Of a DNA stretch of 64,000 bases, positions 67-63,857 are shown in pieces. Made by a program: the position numbers and the translations under genes. Each line of letters begins with the position of its first letter. Within the stretch, counting starts at the first letter, position 1. The notes below the pieces were generated by a model, which saw only the letters and a list, made by a program, of their open reading frames with translations, ran no database searches and had not been told where the DNA came from. The DNA lies in contig JAMIFV010000016.1 of the NCBI GenBank assembly GCA_035906055.1, forward strand, positions 2,210-66,209, given 5' to 3'. This DNA comes from Alphaproteobacteria bacterium (GTDB taxonomy: Bacteria > Pseudomonadota > Alphaproteobacteria > Rickettsiales > JABCZZ01).

Positions 67-1011
67 ATGAGTCTTGGGCTTCAGGTGATCGAAGGCGGTT
101 TTGCGCTGCGCTTAAGCAGGCCTTGGGCGGAAGGCTGGAAGAACGTGCGTGCCGCTATTGCGCAGCATGAATCCGCAGACACATGCGAGGTGGCGCTCAT
201 TCCTTCCGACGCTCCGCCGGGCCTGCAGGACTACCATATGGGCAAGACCACCGTGGCCGCGATCGACGCGCTGGCAGAGAGTTTATGGCTGGGTAATGCA
301 ATGCTTGAAGACCGCGTGGTCAGTTACATGCAGCCCATGCTGGATAAGCGCGGCAAAGTGTTCGGCTATGAAGCCTTCGCGCGTGTGGAAACAAAGGATG
401 GCCCGCCCATCGGCGGCGGCAAGATCATCGAGGCGAGCAAAGGCCTCAACGCGCAATACATACTCGACCGCCATCTGCATGTGAAAGCGGTGACGTCTTT
501 TATTTCCAGCGACCTTGAAGGATTCCTGTTTATCAATTTTGTGCCGGGTTTCATCCACCGCCCGGAAAAATACCTTGAAGGGCTTACCGACGCCGCCAAG
601 TTCAACGGCATGCCTGCCAAGCAGATCGTGCTGGATTTTACACGCTGCGAATCACCCAACGACCTGCACCAGATGAAGGCTATTTTTGATTATTGCCGCG
701 CCAAAGGCTATTCGCTGTCACTCGATGATATTTCATCCACGGCGCTTGCCAAGAAGATCCTTGATGCAATACGCCCCGACTTCATCAAGCTCGACATCGC
801 GCTGGTGCGTGGTGCGCTGGGCGGCGAGCAACAGAAAACCATTGCCGAACTGGTGAGGCTGGCCCATGGCGTGGGCGTTACGGTGGCTGCCGAAGGGGTG
901 GAATCCAAGGAGATACATAACGAGCTTATGAAAGCGGGCGTGGATCTCTTTCAGGGGTATTTGTTTTCTCCGCCCGTTGCCGTCTCAACCTTGAAAAAAG
1001 CAGTCGGCTAG
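67..1011 (+). CDS. EAL-domain protein (putative c-di-GMP phosphodiesterase)
   Basis: 314-aa ORF. EAL-family motifs are present: YEAF (EAL position), INF, LDDISS (DDFG position), IKLD, AAEGVESKE and QGYLFSPP. Confidence 0.85.
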   Translation: MSLGLQVIEGGFALRLSRPWAEGWKNVRAAIAQHESADTCEVALIPSDAPPGLQDYHMGKTTVAAIDALAESLWLGNAMLEDRVVSYMQPMLDKRGKVFGYEAFARVETKDGPPIGGGKIIEASKGLNAQYILDRHLHVKAVTSFISSDLEGFLFINFVPGFIHRPEKYLEGLTDAAKFNGMPAKQIVLDFTRCESPNDLHQMKAIFDYCRAKGYSLSLDDISSTALAKKILDAIRPDFIKLDIALVRGALGGEQQKTIAELVRLAHGVGVTVAAEGVESKEIHNELMKAGVDLFQGYLFSPPVAVSTLKKAVG

Positions 1012-1016
1012 GCTCC

Positions 1017-1075
1017 GGACTCATACATTTTCCTCTCCCTCTAAAGAGGAGGGGAAATGGTAGCATGAGTCCTGA
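1017..1075. repeat. Type B palindromic element (GGACTCAT ... ATGAGTCC ends, CCTCTCCC/GGGGA hairpin core)
   Basis: Reads ggactcatacattttcctctccctctaaagaggaggggaaatggtagcatgagtcctga. The inverted ends and hairpin core are shared with copies near 9003, 54155 and 63403. Confidence 0.75.
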
Positions 1076-1362
1076 CCCAGAGAGCTTTCCACATCCTCTT
1101 TATTCTTGCGCAGCGTCAGGCGCAGAACATCGGTTGCTAAAAAGCGCAGCAGCGTTTTTCCAAAACATCCCTGTACTCGAAGTTTTAAAAAATGCGTGGC
1201 ATGCATTCATATAATTTTAAATTCTCATGCATTTTAATATGCTTTTTATTAAAATTTGTTAAGCAAGCTGTTGATATTAAAACTTTTCTTTCCCATTTAA
1301 CCTGTGGTATATTTGGCACGTTCTTGATTTAACCTGAAGAGTAATGCGCTCGCATATTTAAT

Positions 1363-5498: not shown

Positions 5499-6950
5499 AT
5501 GGCAGCATTCGGCCGGCGCAGTTCGGTGGATAATGCGTCTGCCCCGGCGGGGGCTGGGCCTGTCATACCCGCTGCAAACATGTCGTCTTCCCCGGCTGCT
5601 GCATCCGAGGCGGTGAAGCCGGCGGAAGAGCGCCTGAAGCCGCAGGTGCATGTTGAGGATTCCCCGGCGGATAATGAAAAGCTCAAGGCGCTTACGCAAG
5701 CCAGCGCCACCAAGGATAAGATTTACTCGCTGCTGATGGAGCAGATCGACCTTTCCAGCGCGTCGCGCCTTCCGCGCCCGGACCTGAAGCGCCAGATCAT
5801 CGACCTGATCGGTGAGATCGTGATGGAGCAGAAACTGCTCATCAACCAGACCGAGCAGCAGATGCTGGCCAACCAGATCGTGGACGACATGCTCGGCCTC
5901 GGCCCCCTTGAGCCGTTGCTGCAGGACGAGACCATTACGGATATCATGGTCAACGGCCCCAATCAGGTTTATGTGGAGCAGAAAGGCAAGCTGCGCCTGA
6001 CGGACGTGAAATTCCGCGATAACGGCCATGTAATGGCCATCGCCCAGCGCATCGTGACGGCGATCGGCAGGCGCGTGGACGAATCCAGCCCCATATGCGA
6101 CGCGCGCCTTATGGACGGCAGCCGCGTGAACGTGATAGCGCCGCCCCTTGCCATTCGCGGCTGCAGCGTCTCCATACGTAAATTCTCCAAGAAGAAGATC
6201 ACGCTGGATATCATGGCGTCGCAGAAGAATATCTCCGACAATCTCTGCAAGGTGCTGAAAATAGCCGGGGCGATACGCCTGAATATCATCATCTCCGGCG
6301 GTACGGGTTCGGGTAAAACTACCCTGCTTAACGCGCTCTCGCAGATGATCGACCACGGTGAGCGTATCGTGACCATTGAGGACGCCGCCGAGTTGCAGTT
6401 GCAGCAGCCCCACGTGGTGCCGCTGGAAACAAGGCCCGCCAACCTCGAAGGCGAGGGCGAAATCACCATGCGCGATCTTGTGAAGAACGCGCTGCGTATG
6501 CGGCCTGACCGTATTATCCTTGGCGAGGTGCGCGGCGCGGAATGTATTGATCTTCTGCAGGCCATGAACACGGGCCATGACGGTTCTTTCGGCACGCTGC
6601 ACGCCAACAGCCCGCGAGAAGCGCTCACGCGTATGGAAAACATGGTGGGCATGGCGGGCATCAACCTGCCCAGCAAGGCCGTGCGCACGCAGATAGCCAG
6701 CGCCGTGAACCTTATCGTGCAGATCAGCCGCATGCGCGACGGCATCCGCCGCATTACCCACGTTACCGAGCTGGTGGGCATGGAAGGCGACGTGATCGTG
6801 ACGCAGGATCTATTCCATTTTGAATTTCAGGGCGAAGATGAAAAAGGCAAGCTGGTGGGCGAGTTCAAATCCACCGGCCTGCGCCCCAACTGCATTGCGC
6901 AGGCAGCCTATTACGGCCTCGATAAAGCGTTGCTGGAGGCCATGGGATGA
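5499..6950 (+). CDS. cpaF: Tad secretion ATPase CpaF/TadA
   Basis: 483 aa. Walker A ISGGTGSGKTTLLNAL, RIILGEVRG, and His box GHDGSFGTLHANS. Confidence 0.95.
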   Translation: MAAFGRRSSVDNASAPAGAGPVIPAANMSSSPAAASEAVKPAEERLKPQVHVEDSPADNEKLKALTQASATKDKIYSLLMEQIDLSSASRLPRPDLKRQIIDLIGEIVMEQKLLINQTEQQMLANQIVDDMLGLGPLEPLLQDETITDIMVNGPNQVYVEQKGKLRLTDVKFRDNGHVMAIAQRIVTAIGRRVDESSPICDARLMDGSRVNVIAPPLAIRGCSVSIRKFSKKKITLDIMASQKNISDNLCKVLKIAGAIRLNIIISGGTGSGKTTLLNALSQMIDHGERIVTIEDAAELQLQQPHVVPLETRPANLEGEGEITMRDLVKNALRMRPDRIILGEVRGAECIDLLQAMNTGHDGSFGTLHANSPREALTRMENMVGMAGINLPSKAVRTQIASAVNLIVQISRMRDGIRRITHVTELVGMEGDVIVTQDLFHFEFQGEDEKGKLVGEFKSTGLRPNCIAQAAYYGLDKALLEAMG

Positions 6951-7858
6951 TATCCGCCATCCTGGGCAGCAAAGTAAGCGCAAAACGCATGGCAAGGGTG
7001 ACCCGCCGCCGGTCAACTGCCGTTGAGCGTTCATTCGACGCGCTCAGCTTGCGCCGCAAGGCGAAGGGCAGCTCCATCCCCGGACTCAACAAGCTGTTCA
7101 GCGGCTTTGAGCTTACGGCATCCCTGCGTGCCAAACTGGAGCGCGCGGGCATGAGTATCGGCGCGGAAATGTTTATCACGCTGTGCGTGTCTATTATCGT
7201 TGCGTTCGTGCTGCTGTTCGTGCTGCTCAAGAAAAAGATTATTATCGGCGTGGCGCTGGGCCTGTTCTTCGGGTTCCTGGTGCCGAGGTTTATCGTGAAC
7301 TTCCGCGCCAACAAGCGCATCAAGAAGTTCCTCATATTGTTCCCCGACGCGATCGATTTTATCGTGCGCGGCCTGCGCTCCGGCCTTCCGGTATCGGAAT
7401 CCATGAACATGGTAGGCAAGGAAATGGAACAGCCCATCGCGGGCATATTCGCCGATATAGGTGAATCGGTGAAACTGGGCGTCTCGCTGGAAAAAGCGCT
7501 GCAGGACACGGCAAAAAGGCTGAAATCCACGGAGTTCAACTTCTTCACCACCACCATCATCCTGCAGAGGGAAACAGGCGGCAATCTTTCGGAGATCCTC
7601 AACAACCTCGCCGATGTGCTGCGCAAGCGCTACATGATGCGCATGAAGATCAAGGCGATGTCTTCCGAAGCCAAGGCTTCGGCGATGATCGTGGGCTCGT
7701 TGCCGTTCATCGTTATCGCCGCGCTTACGTTCGTGGCGCCCGACTACCTGACGCCGCTGATAGAAACTTCCAGCGGCAATATCGCCGCCGGGTGCGCAGC
7801 GCTCAGCCTTACGCTTGGTATCACGATCATGATCAAAATGTCGCAGTTCGAGATATAG
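6947..7858 (+). CDS. tadB: Tad inner-membrane platform protein TadB (T2SS F family)
   Basis: 303-aa polytopic protein. ATGA overlap with the cpaF stop; T2SSF-like layout. Confidence 0.8.
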   Translation: MISAILGSKVSAKRMARVTRRRSTAVERSFDALSLRRKAKGSSIPGLNKLFSGFELTASLRAKLERAGMSIGAEMFITLCVSIIVAFVLLFVLLKKKIIIGVALGLFFGFLVPRFIVNFRANKRIKKFLILFPDAIDFIVRGLRSGLPVSESMNMVGKEMEQPIAGIFADIGESVKLGVSLEKALQDTAKRLKSTEFNFFTTTIILQRETGGNLSEILNNLADVLRKRYMMRMKIKAMSSEAKASAMIVGSLPFIVIAALTFVAPDYLTPLIETSSGNIAAGCAALSLTLGITIMIKMSQFEI

Positions 7859-8969: not shown

Positions 8970-9002
8970 TCATTTCCTGAATTGGCGCAGTGAATTGCGG
9001 GC

Positions 9003-9072
9003 TCAGCACTCAATAAACTGATGCTTTCTTTTCCTCTTCCGCTTTGCAGGAGGGGGAATGTATAAAATCAGA
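9003..9072. repeat. Degenerate type B palindromic element
   Basis: gcactcaataaactgatgctttcttttcctcttccgctttgcaggaggggga closely parallels the left half of the copies at 54155 and 63403. The ends are decayed. Confidence 0.6.
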
Positions 9073-9102
9073 GCAATCACGCGAAGCGAAAGCGTTCGAG
9101 AG

Positions 9103-31835: not shown

Positions 31836-34709
31836 TTAATGCGCGTCGCCCCAGTTGGTGGCGAAGCTGGCTTCCACCGTAAGCGGCACGCTCAGATGCG
31901 CGGCGCTTTCCATGATTTTCCTTACATTCGCGGCGACGCTTTCTGCCTGCGCTTCCGGCGCTTCGATAATAAGTTCGTCATGCACCTGCAGCAACATGCG
32001 CGGACCCTCTCCCCCCGCCCTCTCCCTGAAGGGAGAGGGAGTTCCCTCCACCTTTAGGGGGAGGGGTAGGGAGAGGGTCAACTCATGTTCCACTGCTATC
32101 ATCGCGCGTTTGATAATGTCAGCGGCAGTGCCCTGCAACGGCGCATTGATGGCGGCGCGTTCGGAGAAGTTACGCATATTGGGGTTTTTATCGTTGATGC
32201 CCGGCACATGGCAGCGTCGGCCAAATAGCGTTTCCACATAGCCGTGTTCATGTGCGAATTTCTTGGTGCGCTCCATGTAAGCCTGAATGCCGGGATACTG
32301 GGCAAAATACTTTTCAATATACGCCCCCGCCTCGCTGCGCGAGATGCCAAGGCGTGCGGCGAGCCCATGCGCGCTGATGCCGTAGATGATGCCGAAATTG
32401 ATGGTCTTGGCTTTGCGGCGCAGGTCGCCGCTCACCTCCTGCACAGGCACGCCGAACATCTGGCTGGCCGTTATGGCGTGGATGTCGTCGCCGTTCTTAA
32501 ACGCCTCTTTCAGCACGGGAATATCGGCGATATGCGCAAGCAGGCGCAACTCGATCTGTGAATAGTCGGCTGAAATAAGCAGGTTGCCTTGCTCCGCAAC
32601 AAAAGCGTGGCGGATCTTGCGGCCCTCTTCGGTGCGGATGGGGATATTCTGCAGGTTCGGCGAGTTGGAGGAAAGCCTGCCGGTGGAGGTGAGCGCGAGG
32701 GAATAGGACGTATGCACGCGGCGGGTTTGGGGATTGATTTCCTCCGCCAGCGTATCCGTATAGGTGCTTTTGAGTTTGGCAAGCTGGCGCCAGTCGAGAA
32801 TTTTCTGAGCGATAGTATGGCCGCTATCCGCCAGCTCTTCCAGCACTTCGGCACCCGTGCCATAAGCGCCGGTCTTGCCTTTTTTGCCGCCGGGAATGCT
32901 CATTTCGTCGAACAGCACTTCGCCAAGTTGTTTGGGCGAGGCGATGTTGAACGGATGCCCGGCCAGCGCGTGCACTTCCTTTTCCAGTTTCTCCATGCGC
33001 GTGGCAAAGTCGCCAGAGAGTTCAGCGAGTGCCGACTGGTTCACCTTGATGCCGCGCTCTTCCATCGCCACCACCACCGGCACCAGCGGGCGCTCGATGG
33101 TTTCATACAAGGTGAGCATCATCGCATCGGCCACTTGCGGCTTGAGAACCTGCCAGAGGCGGAACGTGACGTCGGCGTCCTCCGCCGCGTAGGCCAGCGC
33201 TTTGTCCAGCGCCACTTCAGCGAACGGAATTCGCGCTTTGCCGGTTCCGGTCACTTGGTCATAGCTGATGGTCTTAAGGCCCAGATAGCGCTCTGCCAGT
33301 TCGTCCATATTATGGTTATGGCTGCCAGCGGCGAGTATGTAGGACAACAGCATCGTGTCTTCCAGCGGGGTAACGCCGATGCCGTATTTCTTCAGTACCA
33401 GCATATCATATTTGATGTTCTGGCCGATCTTGAGCACGGATGCGTCTTCGAGCAGCGGCTTGAGCAGGGAAATAGCGCGTTCAAGCGGCAGCTGTCCCGG
33501 CAGGAGGGGATTGGGCTTTGGGGATTGGACTTTGGGGGAGAACAGGTCCCCGCTGTCCGGGATAGACCCTAATACCTGTTCCCCAATGCCTGAGGCCTTA
33601 TGTGCCACGGGCACATAGCACGCCTTGCCTGCGGTGCTGCATAGCGAGAAGCCCACTAACTCAGCTTGCATGGCATTGAGTGAAGTCGTTTCCGTATCGA
33701 ACGCCACAACGCCTTTTGCGCGGGCGTCATCTATCCAGCGCGCAAGCGCCGCTTCATCCTGCACCAGCTCATAATTTTTAGTCGTGTCATCCCGGCGCAG
33801 GCCTGTATCTCCGGGTGAGGCACCGGCCTTCGCCGGGGTAACGGTGTTTACAAGCCCGAACTTCTCGCTGAATTTGGCGATGAGGGACTTAAAACCCATC
33901 GCGGTGAGGAACGGCATGAGTTTTTCGCTCTCAGGATCGCAGCATGCGAAGGATGTAATCGGCACGGGCAGGGGAATATCGCTCTTCAAACCCACCAGTT
34001 CATAAGACAGCCGCGCTTTGTCGCTGTTCTGTTCGATCGTTTCACGGCGCTTGTTCTGTTTAATGTTGGCAGCATTGGCCAGCACGCCTTCCAGTGTGCC
34101 GAAATTGCCGATGAGCTCCGCCGCTGTCTTAGGGCCGATGCCGGGCACGCCCGGGATATTATCCGACGAATCGCCCATAAGCGATAATACATCGCGCACT
34201 TTTTCCGGCGGCACGCCGAATTTTTCCATCACCTGCTCAGGGCCGATGCTCTTCTGCTTCATGCCGTCATACATGCTGATGCCGGGGCCGATAAGCTGCA
34301 TGAGGTCTTTGTCGGAAGATACGATCACCACTTCCATGCCTTCGGCGCGAGCCGCAGTGGCGTAGGTGGCGATGAGGTCGTCCGCCTCGAATCCGGGCAT
34401 CTCGATGGCGGGCAGGTTAAGCGCCTGCGTGGCCTCGCGCACCAGCGGGAACTGGGGGATAAGGTCTTCCGGCGGCGGCGGGCGGTGGGCTTTGTATTCG
34501 GGATAAATATCGTTGCGGAAGGTCTTGCGGCCCGCGTCGAATATCACGGCGATATGGTCGGCCTTCGCGCCTTCCATAAGCTTGAGCATCATATTGATAA
34601 AGCCATAAACCGCGCCCACGGGAGTGCCTGCCGGGTTGGTGAGCGGCGGCAGGGAATGGTAGGCCCGGAAAATGAAGCCGGAACCGTCGATAAGATAGAG
34701 TTTTTTCAT
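31836..34709 (-). CDS. polA: DNA polymerase I
   Basis: 957 aa. 5'-nuclease N-terminus (LIDGSGFIFRAYH), 3'-5' exonuclease (FDTETTSL), polymerase motifs (DYSQIELRLLAH, RRKAKTINFGIIYG, QVHDELIIE). Contains two palindromic-repeat insertions. Confidence 0.95.
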   Translation of the reverse strand: MKKLYLIDGSGFIFRAYHSLPPLTNPAGTPVGAVYGFINMMLKLMEGAKADHIAVIFDAGRKTFRNDIYPEYKAHRPPPPEDLIPQFPLVREATQALNLPAIEMPGFEADDLIATYATAARAEGMEVVIVSSDKDLMQLIGPGISMYDGMKQKSIGPEQVMEKFGVPPEKVRDVLSLMGDSSDNIPGVPGIGPKTAAELIGNFGTLEGVLANAANIKQNKRRETIEQNSDKARLSYELVGLKSDIPLPVPITSFACCDPESEKLMPFLTAMGFKSLIAKFSEKFGLVNTVTPAKAGASPGDTGLRRDDTTKNYELVQDEAALARWIDDARAKGVVAFDTETTSLNAMQAELVGFSLCSTAGKACYVPVAHKASGIGEQVLGSIPDSGDLFSPKVQSPKPNPLLPGQLPLERAISLLKPLLEDASVLKIGQNIKYDMLVLKKYGIGVTPLEDTMLLSYILAAGSHNHNMDELAERYLGLKTISYDQVTGTGKARIPFAEVALDKALAYAAEDADVTFRLWQVLKPQVADAMMLTLYETIERPLVPVVVAMEERGIKVNQSALAELSGDFATRMEKLEKEVHALAGHPFNIASPKQLGEVLFDEMSIPGGKKGKTGAYGTGAEVLEELADSGHTIAQKILDWRQLAKLKSTYTDTLAEEINPQTRRVHTSYSLALTSTGRLSSNSPNLQNIPIRTEEGRKIRHAFVAEQGNLLISADYSQIELRLLAHIADIPVLKEAFKNGDDIHAITASQMFGVPVQEVSGDLRRKAKTINFGIIYGISAHGLAARLGISRSEAGAYIEKYFAQYPGIQAYMERTKKFAHEHGYVETLFGRRCHVPGINDKNPNMRNFSERAAINAPLQGTAADIIKRAMIAVEHELTLSLPLPLKVEGTPSPFRERAGGEGPRMLLQVHDELIIEAPEAQAESVAANVRKIMESAAHLSVPLTVEASFATNWGDAH
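32003..32079. repeat. Nested palindromic element inserted in frame in the polA polymerase domain
   Basis: gaccctctcccc / ccctctccctgaagggagaggg / ccctccacctttagggggagggg / gggagagggtc. Encodes about TLSLPLPLKVEGTPSPFRERAGGEGP. Boundaries are accurate to a few nt. Confidence 0.8.
33786..33846. repeat. TGTCATCC-type palindromic element in frame in the polA inter-domain linker
   Basis: tgtcatcccggcgcaggcc ... ggccttcgccggggtaac. Encodes VTPAKAGASPGDTGLRRDD on the polA strand. Confidence 0.75.
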
Positions 34710-34766: not shown

Positions 34767-34901
34767 CTATGCAACAATGGCTTCATATAAATCATTCCAT
34801 TCCGGATTCATCGTATCTATCAACTCCAGCTTCCATTGTCGCTTCCAAAATTTTAAGCGCTTCTCACGCCGGATAGCGGATTCTGCCGTGCATAAGGCAT
34901 G
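34767..34901 (-). pseudogene. Truncated GIY-YIG nuclease family gene (C-terminal about 45 codons only)
   Basis: HALCTAESAIRREKRLKFWKRQWKLELIDTMNPEWNDLYE matches the C-terminal REK..K.W.R.WK..LIE..NP.W.DLY region of small GIY-YIG (COG2827-type) proteins. The GIY and YIG motifs are absent. The ORF N-terminus (SAVILRESAGS) is repeat-derived. Confidence 0.7.
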
Positions 34902-34931
34902 AGATCCTGCGCTTTCGCGCAGGATGACGGC
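34893..34931. repeat. Palindromic-repeat arm flanking the GIY-YIG remnant (distal)
   Basis: gatcctgcgctttcgcgcaggatgacgg. The ...aggatgacgg terminus matches the end of the 63280-63366 element. Confidence 0.65.
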
Positions 34932-34956
34932 TGAAAGAGTTTTAAACACTCAAATA

Positions 34957-41800: not shown

Positions 41801-42142
41801 ATACACCAGAAAGCTTTTGGCATCCGCCGGGTTGCTGAGCGTAAGCACCACGGTCCTGCCGCCGTTTTTAGATTCCACTTCCCTGAGCACAGGCGTGAGC
41901 GCGGCGAGGGCACGGTCCCATTTGAGTTTTACCGGGTTTTTGAAATTGAGGATAACCTTGTCGTCACGCGTCTCGGTCTTGAAATCGACTTTGGAGCGTG
42001 AGTCCCAGCTGAATACGAGCTTTGCGCCTTTTTCCGTGATTTCAGAACTGACATAGCCGGTATCTTCAGCAAATGCCGCAGCCGTCATCCCCGACAGGAT
42101 AAACAAAGATAAAGCCACGATTTTTGAAAGCCCTGCGCGCAT
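38864..42142 (-). CDS. Large secreted repeat protein (Pro/Ala-rich linker, helical TPR-like C-terminal half)
   Basis: 1092 aa with signal peptide MRAGLSKIVALSLFILSGMTAAAFA. Low-complexity run LAPVAAPLAPVAAPVASAVAAVA. The C-terminal region is rich in TPR-like helices. No confident family call. Confidence 0.4.
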   Translation of the reverse strand: MRAGLSKIVALSLFILSGMTAAAFAEDTGYVSSEITEKGAKLVFSWDSRSKVDFKTETRDDKVILNFKNPVKLKWDRALAALTPVLREVESKNGGRTVVLTLSNPADAKSFLVYKRDGIDFAKNGVDLKTRPRKPRPISTMTPPESRKSKKTRDPAKKEPKKKAEKTPPVASASPTFTKPAPAAPATSLATIATSLAPVAAPLAPVAAPVASAVAAVAIPSLSPTAIPPAPVPAPAEAATPLSKPVESEIAASPALVDDYISLTRLSPAAGHTEESEAAVKAEPLPAASAAQIAQAMPAAEITGEKIMLPLLADDPVAVFTQGQNIWIVADDTLKLSESQLRNENRQLSYPVKVIQAQQGSILEIAPGKQVEPYVTAQADGKLALILSERPASPGKLLIPSLTTAENKNSISIEAAKTGKVVSASDPQTGATLYMVPVSGAGTGIDTERRFVEFALPVTAQGVVVHKITDDVAVAQEDHAISITSGNGLAISAEFKKELEDIKSASLSRKIPPVLFPYAVWKLDDPRQFVQTQKDLFKTIYSAKPDAANKARLRLLQIFLAEGLFAEANGMANDILRSSDTFYKENKVATMRGAANFFRQRYPEAERDFTAGELAGLPEVKMWQDLIAMATGESRDTFDFSKYYNTTIAYYPPTFIQKLALLVTDKLVERKHYEHASAVFLALQKDALDEPVKKYFDFMRAKILSETGDEEEAAKIWERQAGDVNDPLIRARAEFSLVNMYLREEKIPYDEAVKRLEKLRIVWRGDALELNVLTLLGNLYLEQKDYVRALRAWRDIVAYYSDMPEAITTARKMQSVFVKLFNKGAASEMPPLTGLSLFYEFRDLVPTGTEGDLMIRNLAERLVKMDLLERASQLLSHQIKNRLQGAERSRVGARLAEIYLMNRQPKQALEILKISGYGDLGADIQLSRIRLTAQALAQQGQLDKAIEVLSSDASAEGNLLRLSVYWTNWDWPNVVAMAEEILSNRNDPSAALTLPESEVLLKLATAYVYEQDSGQIQYLRDYFTPLLKNNPNKESFLFITSESGSIDYNNLSNLDKDISTVKSFIDNARKEAKGKSEAATLTAPDEPVKSLN

Positions 42143-54145: not shown

Positions 54146-54154
54146 AAGCAAGGC

Positions 54155-54225
54155 TCAGGACTGATTAAACTCTTGCTTGCTTTTCCTCTCCCGCTTTGCA
54201 AGAGGAAAAGAGTCATGAGTCCTGA
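54155..54225. repeat. Type B palindromic element
   Basis: tcaggactgattaaactcttgcttgcttttcctctcccgctttgcaagaggaaaagagtcatgagtcctga. Contains the 10-bp stem cttttcctct/agaggaaaag, immediately after the HPr stop. Confidence 0.8.
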
Positions 54226-54400
54226 TCCTAGCGGCTGATCTGGCCTTATTGCGCAATTTTCTGATGATTATCCATACAGAATAATAAGTTAGGTTTATCA
54301 GGCGATAAAGCGGCGATTGGATTGCGGTCAATGGAAGTTGTGAATGGCATGCCGTTGAGTTACAATGGGTTCTTGCTTTTACGGTAGAAGGAGTATGCCC

Positions 54401-58284: not shown

Positions 58285-59085
58285 ATGAAAACAGGCACTA
58301 TCGTTATTCTCACCGGCGCAGGTATTTCGGCGGAGTCGGGTGTATCGACCTTCCGCGACAATAACGGCCTGTGGTGCAACCACCGCATTGAAGATGTGGC
58401 GACGCCGGAAGGATTCATGCGCAACCCTGCGCTGGTGCAGCAATTCTATAACCAGCGTCGCGCGCAGCTTGCTGAGGTAAAGCCCAACCTTGCGCATGAA
58501 GCACTGGCGGAACTGGCAGAGAAATGGCCGGGCAGGTTTTTGCTCATCACCCAGAATGTAGATGATCTGCATGACCGCGCATTATTAGGGCGCTGCATCA
58601 CCCCCTCACCCCAACCCTCTCCCCGCCGGGGAGAGGGAGGCGAGCAAAGCGAGCGGGCGAGGGGGCATTTCGAGCTTATCCATCTGCATGGTGAACTGGG
58701 CAAGGTGCGCTGCACCGATACAGGCTCCATTTTTGACTGGACGGGTGATGTTAAGGCGGAATCACAATGCGGTTGTTGCAATGAGATAGGCACGCTGCGC
58801 CCGCATATCGTGTGGTTCGGCGAGATGCCGCTGGAAATGCCAAAAATATACAATGCGCTGGCGCAGTGCGACCTGTTTATCTCCATCGGCACGTCGGGTA
58901 ATGTGTACCCGGCAGCAGGCTTCGTGCAGGAAGTGCGCCGCAACGGGCGCAATGCGCGCACGGTGGAGCTAAACCTTGAACCTTCGCAGGGTTATTCGCT
59001 GTTCGAGGAACGCATCTACGGCAAAGCCACCGAGATAGTGCCGGAGTTTGTAAGAGCGGTGCTTGCAAATGTATCACAATTGTGA
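58285..59085 (+). CDS. cobB: NAD-dependent protein deacylase (Sir2/CobB)
   Basis: [28 protein letters not shown], a Cys pair (CGCC) and [14 protein letters not shown]. Carries an in-frame repeat insertion. Confidence 0.9.
58583..58672. repeat. Palindromic element inserted in frame in cobB
   Basis: ccccctcaccccaaccctctccccgccggggagagggaggcgagcaaagcgagcgggcgaggggg. Encodes about [30 protein letters not shown] between [10 protein letters not shown] and ELIHLHGEL. Boundaries are approximate. Confidence 0.75.
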
Positions 59086-62528: not shown

Positions 62529-63290
62529 ATGGAAAAGCCTTCGATTCTTAAGACCGCCGATGGCGGCAGCATCGCCTACCACCGGCTTGCCGGGGTATCT
62601 CCGGGGATAATTTTTCTCGGTGGCTTCCGTTCCGACATGACCGGGGTAAAGGCGACCGCGCTTGAAGGATTCTGCAAGGAGCGGGGGCAGGCGTTCATCC
62701 GGTTCGATTATCGCGGGCATGGCCAGTCCTCCGGTAAATTCGGGGATTGCACGCTCAGCACGTGGCTGGAAGACGCTTTGCTGGTGCTCACCAAGCTCGC
62801 CAAAGGGCCGCAGATAATAGTTGGCTCGTCCATGGGCGGGTGGCTTTCATTGTTGCTGGCGATACAGAAACCGCGCCGTATCGAAGGCATTATCGGCATA
62901 GCGGCAGCACCCGACTTCACCGAGCACCTCATCTGGGATAAGCTCACCGATAAGCAGAAGACGCAGTTAAAAGAGGATGGCAAGATTCTGGTGCCGTCCG
63001 ATTATGGTGATCCTTACCCCATTACCGCTGACCTGATATTGGATGGTCGCAATCATCTGATATTACATAGGGATATTCCCGTATATTGCCCCATACGTCT
63101 GCTGCACGGCATGAAAGACGACGACGTGCCGTGGGAGGTTTCGATGGCCGTAAACGAGAAGGTGGGCAGCAGCGACGTGAAAACCATCCTCATCGAAAAC
63201 GGCAATCACCGCCTGAGCGAGCCGGACGACATTAAAAAACTGCTGAGTGTTACGGCCAAGCTGCTGGGTTCTATTGAGCCGTCATCCTGA
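62529..63290 (+). CDS. Alpha/beta hydrolase
   Basis: FLGGFRSDM, GSSMGGW nucleophile elbow and LLHGMKDDDVPW. The ATG at 62529 lies within a track ORF that opens with TTG at 62520. The last codons and the stop come from a palindromic repeat. Confidence 0.75.
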   Translation: MEKPSILKTADGGSIAYHRLAGVSPGIIFLGGFRSDMTGVKATALEGFCKERGQAFIRFDYRGHGQSSGKFGDCTLSTWLEDALLVLTKLAKGPQIIVGSSMGGWLSLLLAIQKPRRIEGIIGIAAAPDFTEHLIWDKLTDKQKTQLKEDGKILVPSDYGDPYPITADLILDGRNHLILHRDIPVYCPIRLLHGMKDDDVPWEVSMAVNEKVGSSDVKTILIENGNHRLSEPDDIKKLLSVTAKLLGSIEPSS

Positions 63291-63366
63291 GCGCAACGAA
63301 GGATCCTCTTGCTTTGGTATAGATAGCAAGTAGATCCTTCGTCGCTATGCTCCTCAGGATGACGGT
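63280..63366. repeat. CCGTCATCCTGAGCG-type long palindromic element
   Basis: ccgtcatcctgagcgcaacgaaggatc ... gatccttcgtcgctatgctcctcaggatgacgg, a near-perfect long hairpin. Confidence 0.85.
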
Positions 63367-63402
63367 TCTGCCAAAAACGACCCCGTGACAAGTCTAGGCT
63401 AA

Positions 63403-63608
63403 GGACTCATTAAATTATTGCTTTCTTTTCCTCTCCCTTTGAGGGAGAGGACGCGTTTGCCTTGGGTTTAGCTTTAGCTAAGCCCTTAGGCAAACCGAGG
63501 TGAGGGGGCATTTACATTCACCCTCACCCAGCTTCGGCTAAGCTGCTGCGCTGCAAAGCCTGCGCAACCCTCTCCCGCTTTGCAGGAGAGGGGATTTATG
63601 AGTCCTGA
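63403..63608. repeat. Composite type B element: four consecutive hairpins bracketed by GGACTCAT/ATGAGTCC
   Basis: The four hairpins are cctctccctttgagggagagg, gtttgccttgg..cccttaggcaaac, ggtgagggggcatttacattcaccctcacc and ccctctcccgctttgcaggagagggg. Confidence 0.8.
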
Positions 63609-63857
63609 CCCTAGGGCTGACAAGAGAAGTTTATTTCTTCTACCCATCAACTGATTTTTCGGCAGCGGGCGTTGGTTGCAAGTCGTTATGGGATTTTACA
63701 TCGTTGCCGCCGGTGACAGGTTCCGCAAGCGCTTTGAAGTCTCTGACATAGAAATTTTTAATACCGCTCGCCGCTTAAGGTTTTGTGACGACGTTGTTCC
63801 TTGACTTATAGCTGAAATAGCTGTAACATATGTTATGTAATTAAATTAAGGAATAAC

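What the first reader, a model, noticed from the sequence alone, without database searches (positions are those of the whole stretch)
32003..32079. Nested palindromic repeat inserted in frame in the DNA polymerase I catalytic domain
Between RAMIAVEHEL and RMLLQVHDELIIE (the family A QVHDE motif) polA encodes TLSLPLPLKVEGTPSPFRERAGGEGP.
- The DNA is a set of nested hairpins: gaccctctcccc..., ccctctccctgaagggagaggg, ccctccacctttagggggagggg, ...gggagagggtc.
- The same CCTCTCCC-loop-GGGAGAGG core occurs in intergenic repeats at about 1030, 9030, 54190, 63430 and 63570.
- As I recall it, E. coli Pol I has only a short loop at this position.
- The reading frame stays open.

This resembles the in-frame Rickettsia palindromic elements, here in an essential replication enzyme.
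Basis: partly seen in the sequence, partly recalled or inferred. Interest (0 to 1): 0.72.

Follow-up and report, generated by a model that had tools for sequence, protein, structure and literature searches.

The report
Triplex-motif repeat pair inside polA
A small selfish DNA repeat of the BoxC/"triplex motif" family, which sits between genes in E. coli, has landed in frame inside the DNA polymerase I gene of an unnamed alphaproteobacterium, adding a floppy 26-residue loop next to the active site; other bacteria have independently acquired palindromic inserts at the same loop.

Summary
polA (31836-34709, minus strand) encodes 26 residues (aa 878-903, nt 32001-32078) where the closest orthologs have about 4. 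The loop is 18-23 residues in 72 representative genomes and 40 here. The DNA is a nested palindrome (DNA fold z about -6).

It is not an RPE. It is an inverted pair of BoxC/PIT/TMECO intrastrand-triplex motifs (CCCTCNCCC-N3-6-GGGNGAGGG-N3-GGGNGAGGG; Holder 2015), a family described as intergenic in E. coli. A perfect copy also sits in frame in cobB (58582-58662).

Five other alphaproteobacterial PolAs carry independent palindromic inserts at this loop, at least two of them triplex-type, and each has an insert-free sister. One sister pair differs by exactly 66 nt between near-identical flanks. AlphaFold2 leaves the insert disordered.

Best reading: a repeat pair landed in a permissive surface loop and persists as an in-frame passenger, as RPEs and GTAG/CGTC REPs do. 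REP dimers in PolA linkers are already published, and this PolA appears to have one too. This is a known kind in a new variant, of moderate interest.

The parts
31836..34709 (-). polA, a full-length DNA polymerase I ORF of 957 aa. It has the 5'-nuclease, 3'-5' exonuclease (FDTETT aa 337, NIKYD 431, YAAEDA 507) and polymerase motifs (DYSQIELR 715, RRKAKTINFGIIYG 764, QVHDE 908).
   Evidence: ORF list. Klenow and Taq matches at E 1e-126. Motif positions.
32001..32078 (-). In-frame extra segment of 26 codons (TLSLPLPLKVEGTPSPFRERAGGEGP, aa 878-903). The closest orthologs have about 4 residues here, so the net gain is about 22 aa.
   Evidence: Translation. Ortholog loop lengths. Klenow alignment gap of 19. 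AF2 blocks of pLDDT 53-56, no secondary structure at model residues 353-376.
32005..32039 (-). Triplex motif 1, read on the minus strand: CCCTCTCCC TTCA GGGAGAGGG CGGG GGGAGAGGG. Stems are perfect. The second loop is 4 nt, where the published definition has 3.
   Evidence: Pattern scan. Generalised triplex finder.
32040..32043 (.). 4-nt spacer (AGTT) at the centre of the inverted pair.
   Evidence: Sequence.
32044..32077 (+). Triplex motif 2, read on the plus strand: CCCTCCACC TTTA GGGGGAGGG GTA GGGAGAGGG. It meets the published TMECO definition with the one stem mismatch that definition allows.
   Evidence: Pattern scan. Definition in PMC4666352.
31974..31988 (-). Codons for QVHDE (motif C, aa 908-912), four residues downstream of the insert. 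This corresponds to E. coli Pol I Q879-E883, with the carboxylates D882 and E883.
   Evidence: Translation. Klenow alignment. The E. coli numbering comes from established knowledge plus counting in that alignment.
33783..33842 (-). Probable second in-frame repeat in the same gene: VTPAKAGASPGDTGLRRDDT (aa 290-309) in the linker between the 5'-nuclease and 3'-5' exonuclease domains. It resembles CGTC-type REP dimers.
   Evidence: DNA folds as a hairpin at -18.3 kcal/mol. Published CGTC-1 dimer SIPAKAGIQTGPSMDSRLRGNA at aa 304-325 of Micavibrio PolA, and a CGTC-3 dimer in R. palustris PolA. The same peptide pattern occurs in P0198 and P0154. The linker varies in length among orthologs, so insertion cannot be proved by length alone.
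58285..59085 (+). cobB, a Sir2-family NAD-dependent deacylase ORF of 266 aa.
   Evidence: ORF. E 3e-85 to E. coli CobB 1s5p.
58582..58662 (+). In-frame 27-codon insertion in cobB ([27 protein letters not shown], aa 100-126). It lies between residues that are adjacent in E. coli CobB (chain residues 99 and 100), just before the HxHG strand.
   Evidence: Alignment split into two stretches with a clean gap. Coordinates.
58603..58637 (-). Triplex motif 3: CCCTCTCCC CGGCG GGGAGAGGG TTG GGGTGAGGG. It matches the TMECO definition with no mismatch.
   Evidence: Pattern scan. BLAST matches in all 5426 E. coli genomes, median 15 places per genome, 83-94% identity.

Best explanation
The block in polA is an inverted pair of BoxC/PIT/TMECO "intrastrand triplex motif" repeats. 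Each motif is a pyrimidine stem, a loop, a purine stem, a loop and a second purine stem, about 35 nt in all, and the two are joined head to head by AGTT.

A copy of this pre-existing repeat family entered the gene in the window's lineage. How BoxC elements move is unknown. By analogy with REP/REPIN elements, I infer that a single-stranded hairpin intermediate at a replication fork is mobilised in trans. Template switching onto another copy is the alternative route.

The insertion survived for three reasons:
1. It added a multiple of three bases.
2. The frame in use has no stop codon; three of the six frames are open.
3. It hit the surface loop between the long palm helix (helix Q of Klenow) and the beta-strand that carries the motif-C carboxylates. 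That loop tolerates extra length.

The encoded Pro/Leu/Gly/Glu-rich peptide is a disordered excursion, and the enzyme is most likely still active. The same filter explains the second copy in cobB and the independent palindromic inserts at the same PolA loop in other lineages.

What is shown: the identity of the element, its lineage-specific presence, the open frame, its recurrence at the loop, and clean gain or loss in a related pair. What is inferred: the mode of mobilisation, neutrality, and retained activity.
For: **Identity.** Under the published definition the window has strict matches only at polA 32044-77 and cobB 58603-37, plus polA 32005-39 with a 4-nt second loop. Shuffled windows give none (definition). 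The cobB copy hits the E. coli BoxC sites in 5426 of 5426 genomes.

**Architecture.** An outer stem enclosing two hairpins recurs in more than 120 metagenome contigs, with a CCCTCACCC flank that the search pattern did not require.

**Lineage-specific gain.** The loop is 18-23 aa in 72 genomes and 26-31 aa, by the longer measure in which the window scores 48, in most of 57 homologs. The sisters of the window sequence lack the insert.

**Permissive site.**
- Five of the seven insertions of 8 aa or more in the last 430 aa of 120 PolAs fall at this loop.
- The inserts come from at least three element types: triplex pairs (window, L081, L082), a triplex-like hairpin (L084), a long purine/pyrimidine hairpin (L083) and a GTCATCC-terminated palindrome (L205). 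Their fold z-scores are -3.4 to -10, against -0.2 to -1.4 for short loops.
- L081 and its sister L208 differ by 93 versus 27 nt between near-identical flanks.

**Structure.** The AF2 model has mean pLDDT 92, but the insert has blocks of 53-56 with no secondary structure between H316-352 and E377-382.

**Frames.** Three of six frames are open in the polA element and five of six in the cobB block.

**Same behaviour elsewhere.** Triplex motifs lie in frame in a KS-AT-FabA synthase (L136, three copies), an E2 acyltransferase linker (L126) and an HlyD-family protein (L091).

**Precedent.** RPEs and GTAG/CGTC REP dimers that encode 20-30 aa inside genes, including DNA polymerase I.
Against: - No empty-site allele from a close relative of the window organism is available. 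The nearest PolA is 67-71% identical, so the boundaries and any target duplication cannot be read.
- The 77-nt composite has no second full-length copy in the 64 kb, and the rest of the genome could not be retrieved.
- BoxC/TMECO mobility has never been demonstrated. Holder et al. found no link to transposons.
- No target-site duplication is visible at the polA or cobB junctions.
- The L081/L208 pair can also be read as growth in place rather than collapse.
- Activity and expression of the insert-bearing enzyme are untested.
Confidence: 0.8

Rival explanations
1. Growth in place. The palindrome arose at this site by template switching or slippage that duplicated and inverted a short pre-existing hairpin. 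No copy came from elsewhere, and the likeness to BoxC reflects convergent sequence preferences of that process.
For: L208 carries a single 27-nt hairpin where its sister L081 has a 93-nt pair between near-identical flanks, which could be a seed and its expansion. The two halves of the polA element are about 70-75% alike, as an inverted duplication that later diverged would be (sequence). No target duplication and no transposase link are known.
Against: The cobB copy matches a definition drawn up on E. coli with no mismatch, and is 83-94% identical to E. coli copies. The same three-block architecture, with its extra CCCTCACCC flank, recurs in contigs of 42-72% GC. Convergence to that degree is unlikely. 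Holder et al. describe collapse of inverted pairs to a single hairpin, which explains L208 equally well.
Confidence: 0.1
2. Targeted insertion. This polA loop is a preferred integration site for palindromic elements because of some DNA feature, and is not simply one of the few sites where insertions are tolerated.
For: Six independent inserts at one loop, and five of seven long insertions in the polymerase domain. Two other lineages have triplex pairs immediately downstream of polA (L021, L005).
Against: At least three unrelated element types use the site. Empty orthologous sites have no unusual structure, with z from -0.2 to -1.4. Loop length already varies from 18 to 23 aa, as expected of an unconstrained surface loop. 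Published REP insertions in genes of the same functional category are mostly at different sites.
Confidence: 0.15
3. Adaptive insert. The added peptide, or the strong DNA/mRNA structure, has been co-opted. It might act as a partner-binding loop on Pol I or as a brake on polA transcription or translation.
For: The mRNA hairpin is very stable (-68 kcal/mol). The structure is still nearly intact, and both triplex motifs keep their stems. According to Holder's account of earlier work, PIT elements can block DNA polymerases in vitro.
Against: The peptide is low-complexity and modelled as disordered. Inserts at the same loop in other lineages are unrelated in sequence. The nearest relatives do without it. 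PIT/TMECO elements showed no promoter or terminator activity and no in vivo effect in E. coli. The cobB copy has no plausible shared function.
Confidence: 0.07
4. Artefact or dead gene. The block is an assembly chimera at a repeat, or polA is a decaying pseudogene.
For: Repeats are classic sites of misassembly, and only one contig is on record.
Against: The exact 957-aa protein is held by two sources, NCBI and a Logan assembly of reads. The ORF is uninterrupted with all three domains and every catalytic motif. The insertion is a whole number of codons. Analogous inserts occur in independent assemblies from other samples.
Confidence: 0.03

Closest known systems
BoxC / PIT / TMECO intrastrand triplex motifs (named BoxC in E. 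coli in the 1990s, per PMC4666352; Hoyne & Maher 2000, 2002; Holder et al. 2015, PMC4666352)
   Same: - Same sequence pattern and block order: C-stem, loop, G-stem, 3-nt loop, G-stem.
- 83-94% identity to E. coli copies.
- Occurs as inverted pairs.
- One member of the polA pair has a TTA-like second loop (GTA) and the other a CCG-like one (CGGG), echoing the E. coli type A plus type B pairs.
   Different: - In E. coli K-12 all 23 copies are intergenic. In a 60-record sample, 58 matches lie under no feature and 2 clip only the last ~8 codons of ycjD. Here all three copies are internal to conserved enzymes and translated.
- The two motifs of the polA pair are 4 nt apart, against about 16 nt or more in E. 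coli.
- The third strands in polA read GGGAGAGGG rather than GGGTGAGGG.
- One second loop is 4 nt.
Rickettsia palindromic elements, RPE (Ogata 2000, 2002; Claverie & Ogata 2003)
   Same: Palindromic repeats found both between and within genes. They are inserted in frame in conserved genes that stay functional, and are interpreted as selfish DNA filtered by selection for tolerated positions.
   Different: RPEs are 105-146 bp elements described from Rickettsia and, from my own knowledge, AT-rich. This element is 73-77 nt, 68% G+C, built of triplex-type modules, and belongs to a family that is widespread across Proteobacteria.
GTAG/CGTC-tagged REPs inside genes (Di Nocera et al. 2013, PMC3733652)
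   Same: - Dimers in inverted orientation encode 20-30 aa inside ORFs.
- They are over-represented in DNA synthesis and repair genes.
- DNA polymerase I is hit in Micavibrio aeruginosavorus (aa 304-325) and R. palustris (aa 338-367).
- The window's PolA linker segment VTPAKAGA...GLRRDDT fits this class.
   Different: The palm-loop element has no terminal GTAG or CGTC tag and is a three-block triplex motif rather than a simple REP hairpin. The published PolA cases are in the inter-domain linker, not next to motif C.
REPIN / RAYT system (REP doublets forming hairpins; recalled from Bertels & Rainey 2011 and Nunvar 2010, not read here)
   Same: The unit is an inverted doublet of short palindromic repeats that folds into one long hairpin.
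   Different: REPINs are almost entirely extragenic and tied to a RAYT transposase gene. No such association is known for BoxC, and none could be tested here.

Membership tests
BoxC / PIT / TMECO triplex motif | Sequence pattern 5'-CCCTCNCCC N3-6 GGGNGAGGG N3 GGGNGAGGG[GTC-], with one stem mismatch allowed | tested here: met
   polA 32044-77 has 1 mismatch and cobB 58603-37 has none. polA 32005-39 fits except for a 4-nt second loop. Shuffled windows give no hits (definition).
BoxC / PIT / TMECO triplex motif | Direct sequence similarity to catalogued E. coli copies | tested here: met
   The cobB motif matches all 5426 E. coli genomes, with a median of 15 places per genome (range 1-29) at 83-94% identity. 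This fits the published 1-29 copies per strain.
BoxC / PIT / TMECO triplex motif | Third block is the mirror of the purine stem (a purine-motif, class II triplex geometry) | tested here: met
   A generalised finder with that rule picks out polA and cobB only in the window, and none in shuffles.
BoxC / PIT / TMECO triplex motif | Multi-copy dispersed repeat within the host genome | tested here: inconclusive
   Three copies in 64 kb, against 7 in 1.48 Mb of related loci. The rest of the source genome could not be obtained.
BoxC / PIT / TMECO triplex motif | Intergenic location. This is a described property in E. coli and is not part of the sequence definition. | tested here: not met
   All three window copies are internal to ORFs with strong homologs. 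In E. coli the motif is "always located intergenically".
BoxC / PIT / TMECO triplex motif | The single strand folds into a stable intrastrand triplex | not testable with these tools
   This needs CD, NMR or melting experiments on the oligonucleotide. The folding tools used here model only Watson-Crick hairpins.
Rickettsia palindromic elements (RPE) | Member of an RPE sequence family: 105-146 bp, described from Rickettsia | tested here: not met
   The element is 73-77 nt, 68% G+C, and identified as BoxC/TMECO. No RPE sequence was aligned directly.
Rickettsia palindromic elements (RPE) | In-frame insertion in a conserved gene that keeps an intact ORF | tested here: met
Rickettsia palindromic elements (RPE) | The insert lies at a position compatible with the fold (a surface loop) | tested here: met
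   In the AF2 model the rest of the domain is confident, and the insert is unstructured between a helix and a strand. Loop length is naturally variable.
GTAG/CGTC-tagged REP (RAYT-type) | A GTAG or CGTC tetranucleotide at one end of the palindrome | tested here: not met
   For the palm-loop element, GTAG occurs only internally (32066-69, in the second loop of motif 2) and not at a terminus (sequence). For the linker element the tags are degenerate (CGTT / CGTGTC), which is inconclusive.
GTAG/CGTC-tagged REP (RAYT-type) | Association with a RAYT (Y1 transposase) gene | not tested
   The window's ORFs were not screened for Y1 transposases, and the genome is unavailable.
MITE | Terminal inverted repeats plus a target-site duplication | tested here: inconclusive
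   The outer arms pair, but no direct repeat flanks the polA or cobB block by eye, and no empty allele exists to define the ends.

The most novel reading that the evidence does not exclude
BoxC/TMECO triplex-motif pairs are truly mobile units that can enter coding DNA. The PolA loop before motif C would then be a natural trap that records their arrivals and collapses across alphaproteobacterial lineages. That would give the first filled-site/empty-site series for a repeat family whose mode of spread has been unknown since the 1990s. It would also show that sequences able to stall DNA polymerases in vitro can be carried inside the polymerase gene itself.
Probability: 0.3. Interest if true: 0.65.

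Novelty: new variant of a known kind. Interest (0 to 1): 0.47.

Why it matters
In-frame palindromic repeats are a known route by which selfish DNA lengthens proteins. BoxC/PIT/TMECO elements, however, have been treated as strictly intergenic and of unknown mobility and function.

Finding them translated inside two conserved enzymes, together with repeated independent palindromic inserts at one loop beside the Pol I active site, does three things:
- It extends the RPE/REP phenomenon to another repeat family.
- It supplies natural gain and loss events that bear on whether these motifs move.
- It marks a loop of family A polymerases that tolerates about 20-28 extra residues, which is useful for enzyme engineering.

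There is also a practical point for annotation. P/S/L...G/E/R-rich low-complexity stretches in otherwise conserved proteins of repeat-rich genomes can be repeat-derived rather than errors.

Tried and rejected
- **Second copy in the window.** BLAST with a short word size found only the 9-11 nt core, not a second full-length copy of the 77-nt composite.
- **Source genome.** An exact look-up shows the proteins exist in NCBI and Logan on an 80,286-nt contig with no name. The contig look-up failed. The genome is absent from the GTDB representatives, where the best PolA is 67% identical. A second protein search with the less conserved linker and exonuclease region still found nothing above 55%. A genome-wide genic versus intergenic count and an empty-site allele were therefore impossible.
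- **Intergenic repeats as family members.** I rejected the idea that the copies at 1030, 9030, 54190, 63430 and 63570 belong to the same family. They align as a separate element with termini CTAGGnTCAGGACTCAT...ATGAGTCCTGAnCCTAG and no third block, and they fail the triplex definition.
- **Other GTCATCCC sites.** The sites at 42084, 50511, 57938 and 58061 are not copies of the linker element.
- **Rfam.** No family matches anywhere in the window.
- **Key RPE paper.** Ogata 2002 (PMC186582) is not held. My first literature query was too loose to be useful.
- **Ambiguous metagenome cases.** L117, L157, L116 and L154 have the motif upstream of the first recognised domain, so they were not counted as genic. 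L206 has a 28-aa loop that is not palindromic, so it was not counted as an element insertion.
- **Translational bypass and inteins.** I considered a bypass like T4 gene 60, and an intein. Neither fits: the frame is open, the segment is far too short for an intein, and no matched take-off and landing codons would preserve the conserved RMLL.


Full report
**1. The observation.** polA is a 957-codon ORF on the minus strand, 31836-34709. Between RAMIAVEHEL and RMLLQVHDE it encodes TLSLPLPLKVEGTPSPFRERAGGEGP (aa 878-903, nt 32001-32078). There is an outer pair (31993-2013 / 32069-89) and two internal hairpins (32018-27 / 32030-39, perfect; 32044-53 / 32056-65). It folds at -32 kcal/mol as DNA (z -5.4 to -6.2) and -68 kcal/mol as RNA (z -7.5). 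It is among the three strongest local-folding outliers in the window. The core is over-represented: GGGAGAGGG occurs 8 times against 0.23 expected, and the hairpin pattern 3 times against 0.

**2. It is an insertion.** Klenow aligns across the site with a 19-residue gap. From the conserved ...AADIIK to QVHDE the loop is 18-23 residues (mode 21) in 72 representative genomes and 40 here. By a slightly longer measure it is 26-31 in most of 57 metagenomic homologs and 48 here. The nearest sequences (P0001-3 and L001, 67-71% identical) have about four residues where the window has 26. In a neighbour-joining tree they are the window's sisters. The gene is otherwise complete, with the exonuclease motifs, motifs A and B, and QVHDE all present. 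An AlphaFold2 model of the last 430 residues is confident (mean pLDDT 92). The exception is the insert, which has 10-residue blocks of 56 and 53 and no secondary structure between helix 316-352 and strand 377-382. By the Klenow alignment the site corresponds to the loop around E. coli Pol I residues 866-873, ahead of the strand that ends in D882/E883. That numbering comes from established knowledge plus counting.

**3. What the element is.** A three-module search pattern taken from the element hit more than 120 metagenome contigs of 42-72% GC. Many of these had an extra conserved flank (CCCTCACCC...GGGTGAGGG) that the pattern did not ask for, and the same layout of an outer stem enclosing two hairpins.

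A literature search on the motif strings led to Holder et al. 2015 (PMC4666352). They describe the TMECO/BoxC/PIT intrastrand triplex motif, 5'-CCCTCNCCC N3-6 GGGNGAGGG N3 GGGNGAGGG, as follows:
- 3610 copies in 262 proteobacterial genomes;
- 23 copies in E. coli K-12, "always located intergenically";
- five sites with tandem inverted pairs;
- no promoter or terminator activity, and no link to transposons;
- raised local genomic variability.

Applying that definition to the window gives exactly these hits:
- cobB 58603-37, minus strand, no mismatch;
- polA 32005-39, minus strand, second loop of 4 nt.

Shuffled windows give none. A generalised mirror-rule finder agrees. The cobB copy matches repeats in all 5426 complete E. 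coli genomes, with a median of 15 places per genome at 83-94% identity. The polA block is therefore an inverted pair of triplex motifs separated by AGTT.

**4. The cobB copy.** The Sir2-family ORF 58285-59085 aligns to E. coli CobB in two stretches. Window residues 100-126 ([27 protein letters not shown], nt 58582-58662) are unmatched, between residues that are adjacent in the E. coli chain. All three triplex motifs in the window are thus internal to conserved genes and translated. In a spread sample of 60 E. coli records, 58 matches lie under no feature. Two overlap only the last ~8 codons of ycjD, next to fabI.

The repeats at about 1030, 9030, 54190, 63430 and 63570 align with one another as a separate element. 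It has termini CTAGGnTCAGGACTCAT...ATGAGTCCTGAnCCTAG around a TTTTCCTCTCCC-loop-GGAGAGGGGAAA hairpin. The 63393-63615 copy is split by about 110 nt of other palindromic DNA. These repeats lack the third block and fail both triplex scans. They share the hairpin core but are not the same family.

**6. A recurrent landing site.** Other PolAs have long loops at the same position. I fetched their DNA:

| Locus (protein) | Loop DNA (nt) | Element type | Fold z |
|---|---|---|---|
| L081 (P0007) | 123 | Inverted triplex pair built on CCCCTCCCC | -5.4 |
| L082 (P0039) | 147 | Long palindrome; the strict finder confirms one triplex motif, built on CTTCCCCC | -6.2 |
| L084 (P0010) | 108 | CCTCTCCC-ACC-GGGAGAGG hairpin, a second hairpin, then GGTGAGGG | -3.4 |
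| L083 (P0043) | 120 | Long purine/pyrimidine hairpin | -10.1 |
| L205 (P0056) | 123 | Palindrome with CGTCATCCTG...CAGGATGACG ends | -4.6 |

Short-loop orthologs give z from -0.2 to -1.4. Each insert-bearing sequence has an insert-free sister. Within the last 430 residues of 120 PolAs, five of the seven lineage-specific insertions of 8 aa or more are at this loop.

L081 and its sister L208 have near-identical flanks. Between them they carry 93 and 27 nt respectively, a 66-nt (22-codon) difference, and L208 retains a single hairpin. That matches the collapse of inverted pairs to a hairpin noted by Holder et al., although growth in place is the alternative reading. Several unrelated element types use the site, and empty sites have no special structure. 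I therefore favour tolerance over targeting.

**7. Triplex motifs in genes elsewhere.** Among the metagenome hits, three pairs lie in frame in a KS-AT-FabA synthase ORF (L136). One lies in the lipoyl-to-E3-binding linker of an E2 acyltransferase (L126), and one inside an HlyD-family protein (L091). Four further cases are ambiguous. In 1.48 Mb around polA in 80 related genomes the generalised finder sees only seven motifs, none of them in the polA loop.

**8. Precedent and novelty.** In-frame palindromic repeats are well documented: RPEs, ERIC/RU-3, RUP/BOX and BRE. Di Nocera et al. 2013 list many intragenic GTAG/CGTC REPs, mostly dimers encoding 20-30 aa and enriched in DNA synthesis and repair genes. 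The list includes DNA polymerase I of Micavibrio aeruginosavorus (aa 304-325, SIPAKAGIQTGPSMDSRLRGNA) and R. palustris (aa 338-367).

The window's PolA has VTPAKAGASPGDTGLRRDDT at aa 290-309 in the same linker, encoded by hairpin-forming DNA. P0198 and P0154 show the same pattern. This gene therefore probably carries two repeat-derived segments from two families.

As far as I could find, three things are new. BoxC/TMECO motifs are translated inside conserved enzymes. An insert lies four residues from motif C. Independent inserts accumulate at that one loop.

**9. Mechanism and limits.**
- Shown: the identity of the element, lineage-specific presence, the open frame (three of six frames open), disorder in the model, recurrence at the loop, and in-frame length polymorphism in a related pair.
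- Inferred: entry of a pre-existing pair by an unknown mobilisation route, selection as the filter, neutrality, and retained Pol I activity.
- Missing: the source genome, a close empty-site allele, and any expression or enzymology.

Noticed in passing
window 58582-58662 (cobB ORF 58285-59085, + strand): A 27-codon in-frame insertion in the Sir2-family deacylase, just before the catalytic HxHG strand. It contains a perfect BoxC/TMECO motif (58603-58637, minus strand).
   Followed up: yes
window 33783-33842 (polA aa 290-309): The linker segment VTPAKAGASPGDTGLRRDDT is encoded by hairpin-forming DNA and closely resembles the published CGTC-1 REP dimer in the Micavibrio PolA linker (SIPAKAGIQTGPSMDSRLRGNA). 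It is probably a second repeat-derived segment in the same gene. The linker varies in length among orthologs, so length alone does not prove an insertion.
   Followed up: partly
window 1005-1085, 8985-9075, 54150-54235, 63393-63615: An intergenic MITE-like family of about 80 nt, with termini CTAGGnTCAGGACTCAT...ATGAGTCCTGAnCCTAG around a TTTTCCTCTCCC hairpin. The 9030 copy is degenerate. The 63393-63615 copy is split by about 110 nt of other palindromic DNA, which includes a GGTGAGGG...CCCTCACC hairpin.
   Followed up: partly
window 63281-63365 and about 34900-34935: Another palindrome type with GTCATCCTGAGCG...CCTCAGGATGAC ends, a strong folding outlier at z -5.3. A CAGGATGAC hairpin lies just upstream of polA. 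The same terminal motif bounds the insert in the PolA loop of L205.
   Followed up: partly
L136:2958-8801 (minus strand): A 1948-codon KS-AT-FabA (PUFA/polyketide synthase-like) open frame carries three in-frame triplex-motif pairs, at about aa 314, 1048 and 1116. The first lies between the N- and C-terminal ketosynthase Pfam matches.
   Followed up: partly
L126:2363-3697 (minus strand): A triplex motif is translated in the linker between the lipoyl and E3-binding domains of an E2 acyltransferase. This parallels the published GTAG-17 REP dimers in Opitutus terrae E2 subunits.
   Followed up: partly
L081:1054-1176 versus L208:2272-2370: Closely related PolA genes differ by exactly 66 nt at the loop. 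One has a 93-nt triplex pair and the other a 27-nt single hairpin, between near-identical flanks. This is a natural gain or collapse event.
   Followed up: yes
L021:12829-12924; L005:4323-4356: Triplex motifs lie immediately downstream of the polA stop codon in two other alphaproteobacterial MAGs: an inverted pair in L021 and a single motif in L005.
   Followed up: no
L083:5042-5935 and 6001-7521: In this syntenic relative, polA is called as two ORFs (5'-nuclease, then exonuclease plus polymerase). The cause is either a frameshift or stop in the linker, or a natural split.
   Followed up: no
L207:601-641 (E. coli NZ_CP070048.1, fabI-ycjD-sapF region): An E. coli BoxC copy overlaps the last ~8 codons of ycjD. 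This is the only genic overlap among 60 sampled E. coli records.
   Followed up: yes
P0104 (PolA homolog), aligned at window PolA residue 624: A 27-residue tandem duplication (YLAAQGHDLPARVLDWRQLSKLKSTYT) in the polymerase domain. It is the only other long insertion found in the last 430 residues and is not palindromic.
   Followed up: no
whole window: No Rfam family reaches threshold anywhere in the 64 kb. The nearest PolA in three large collections is only 67-71% identical, so the window comes from a poorly sampled, repeat-rich alphaproteobacterial lineage of about 55% G+C.
   Followed up: partly
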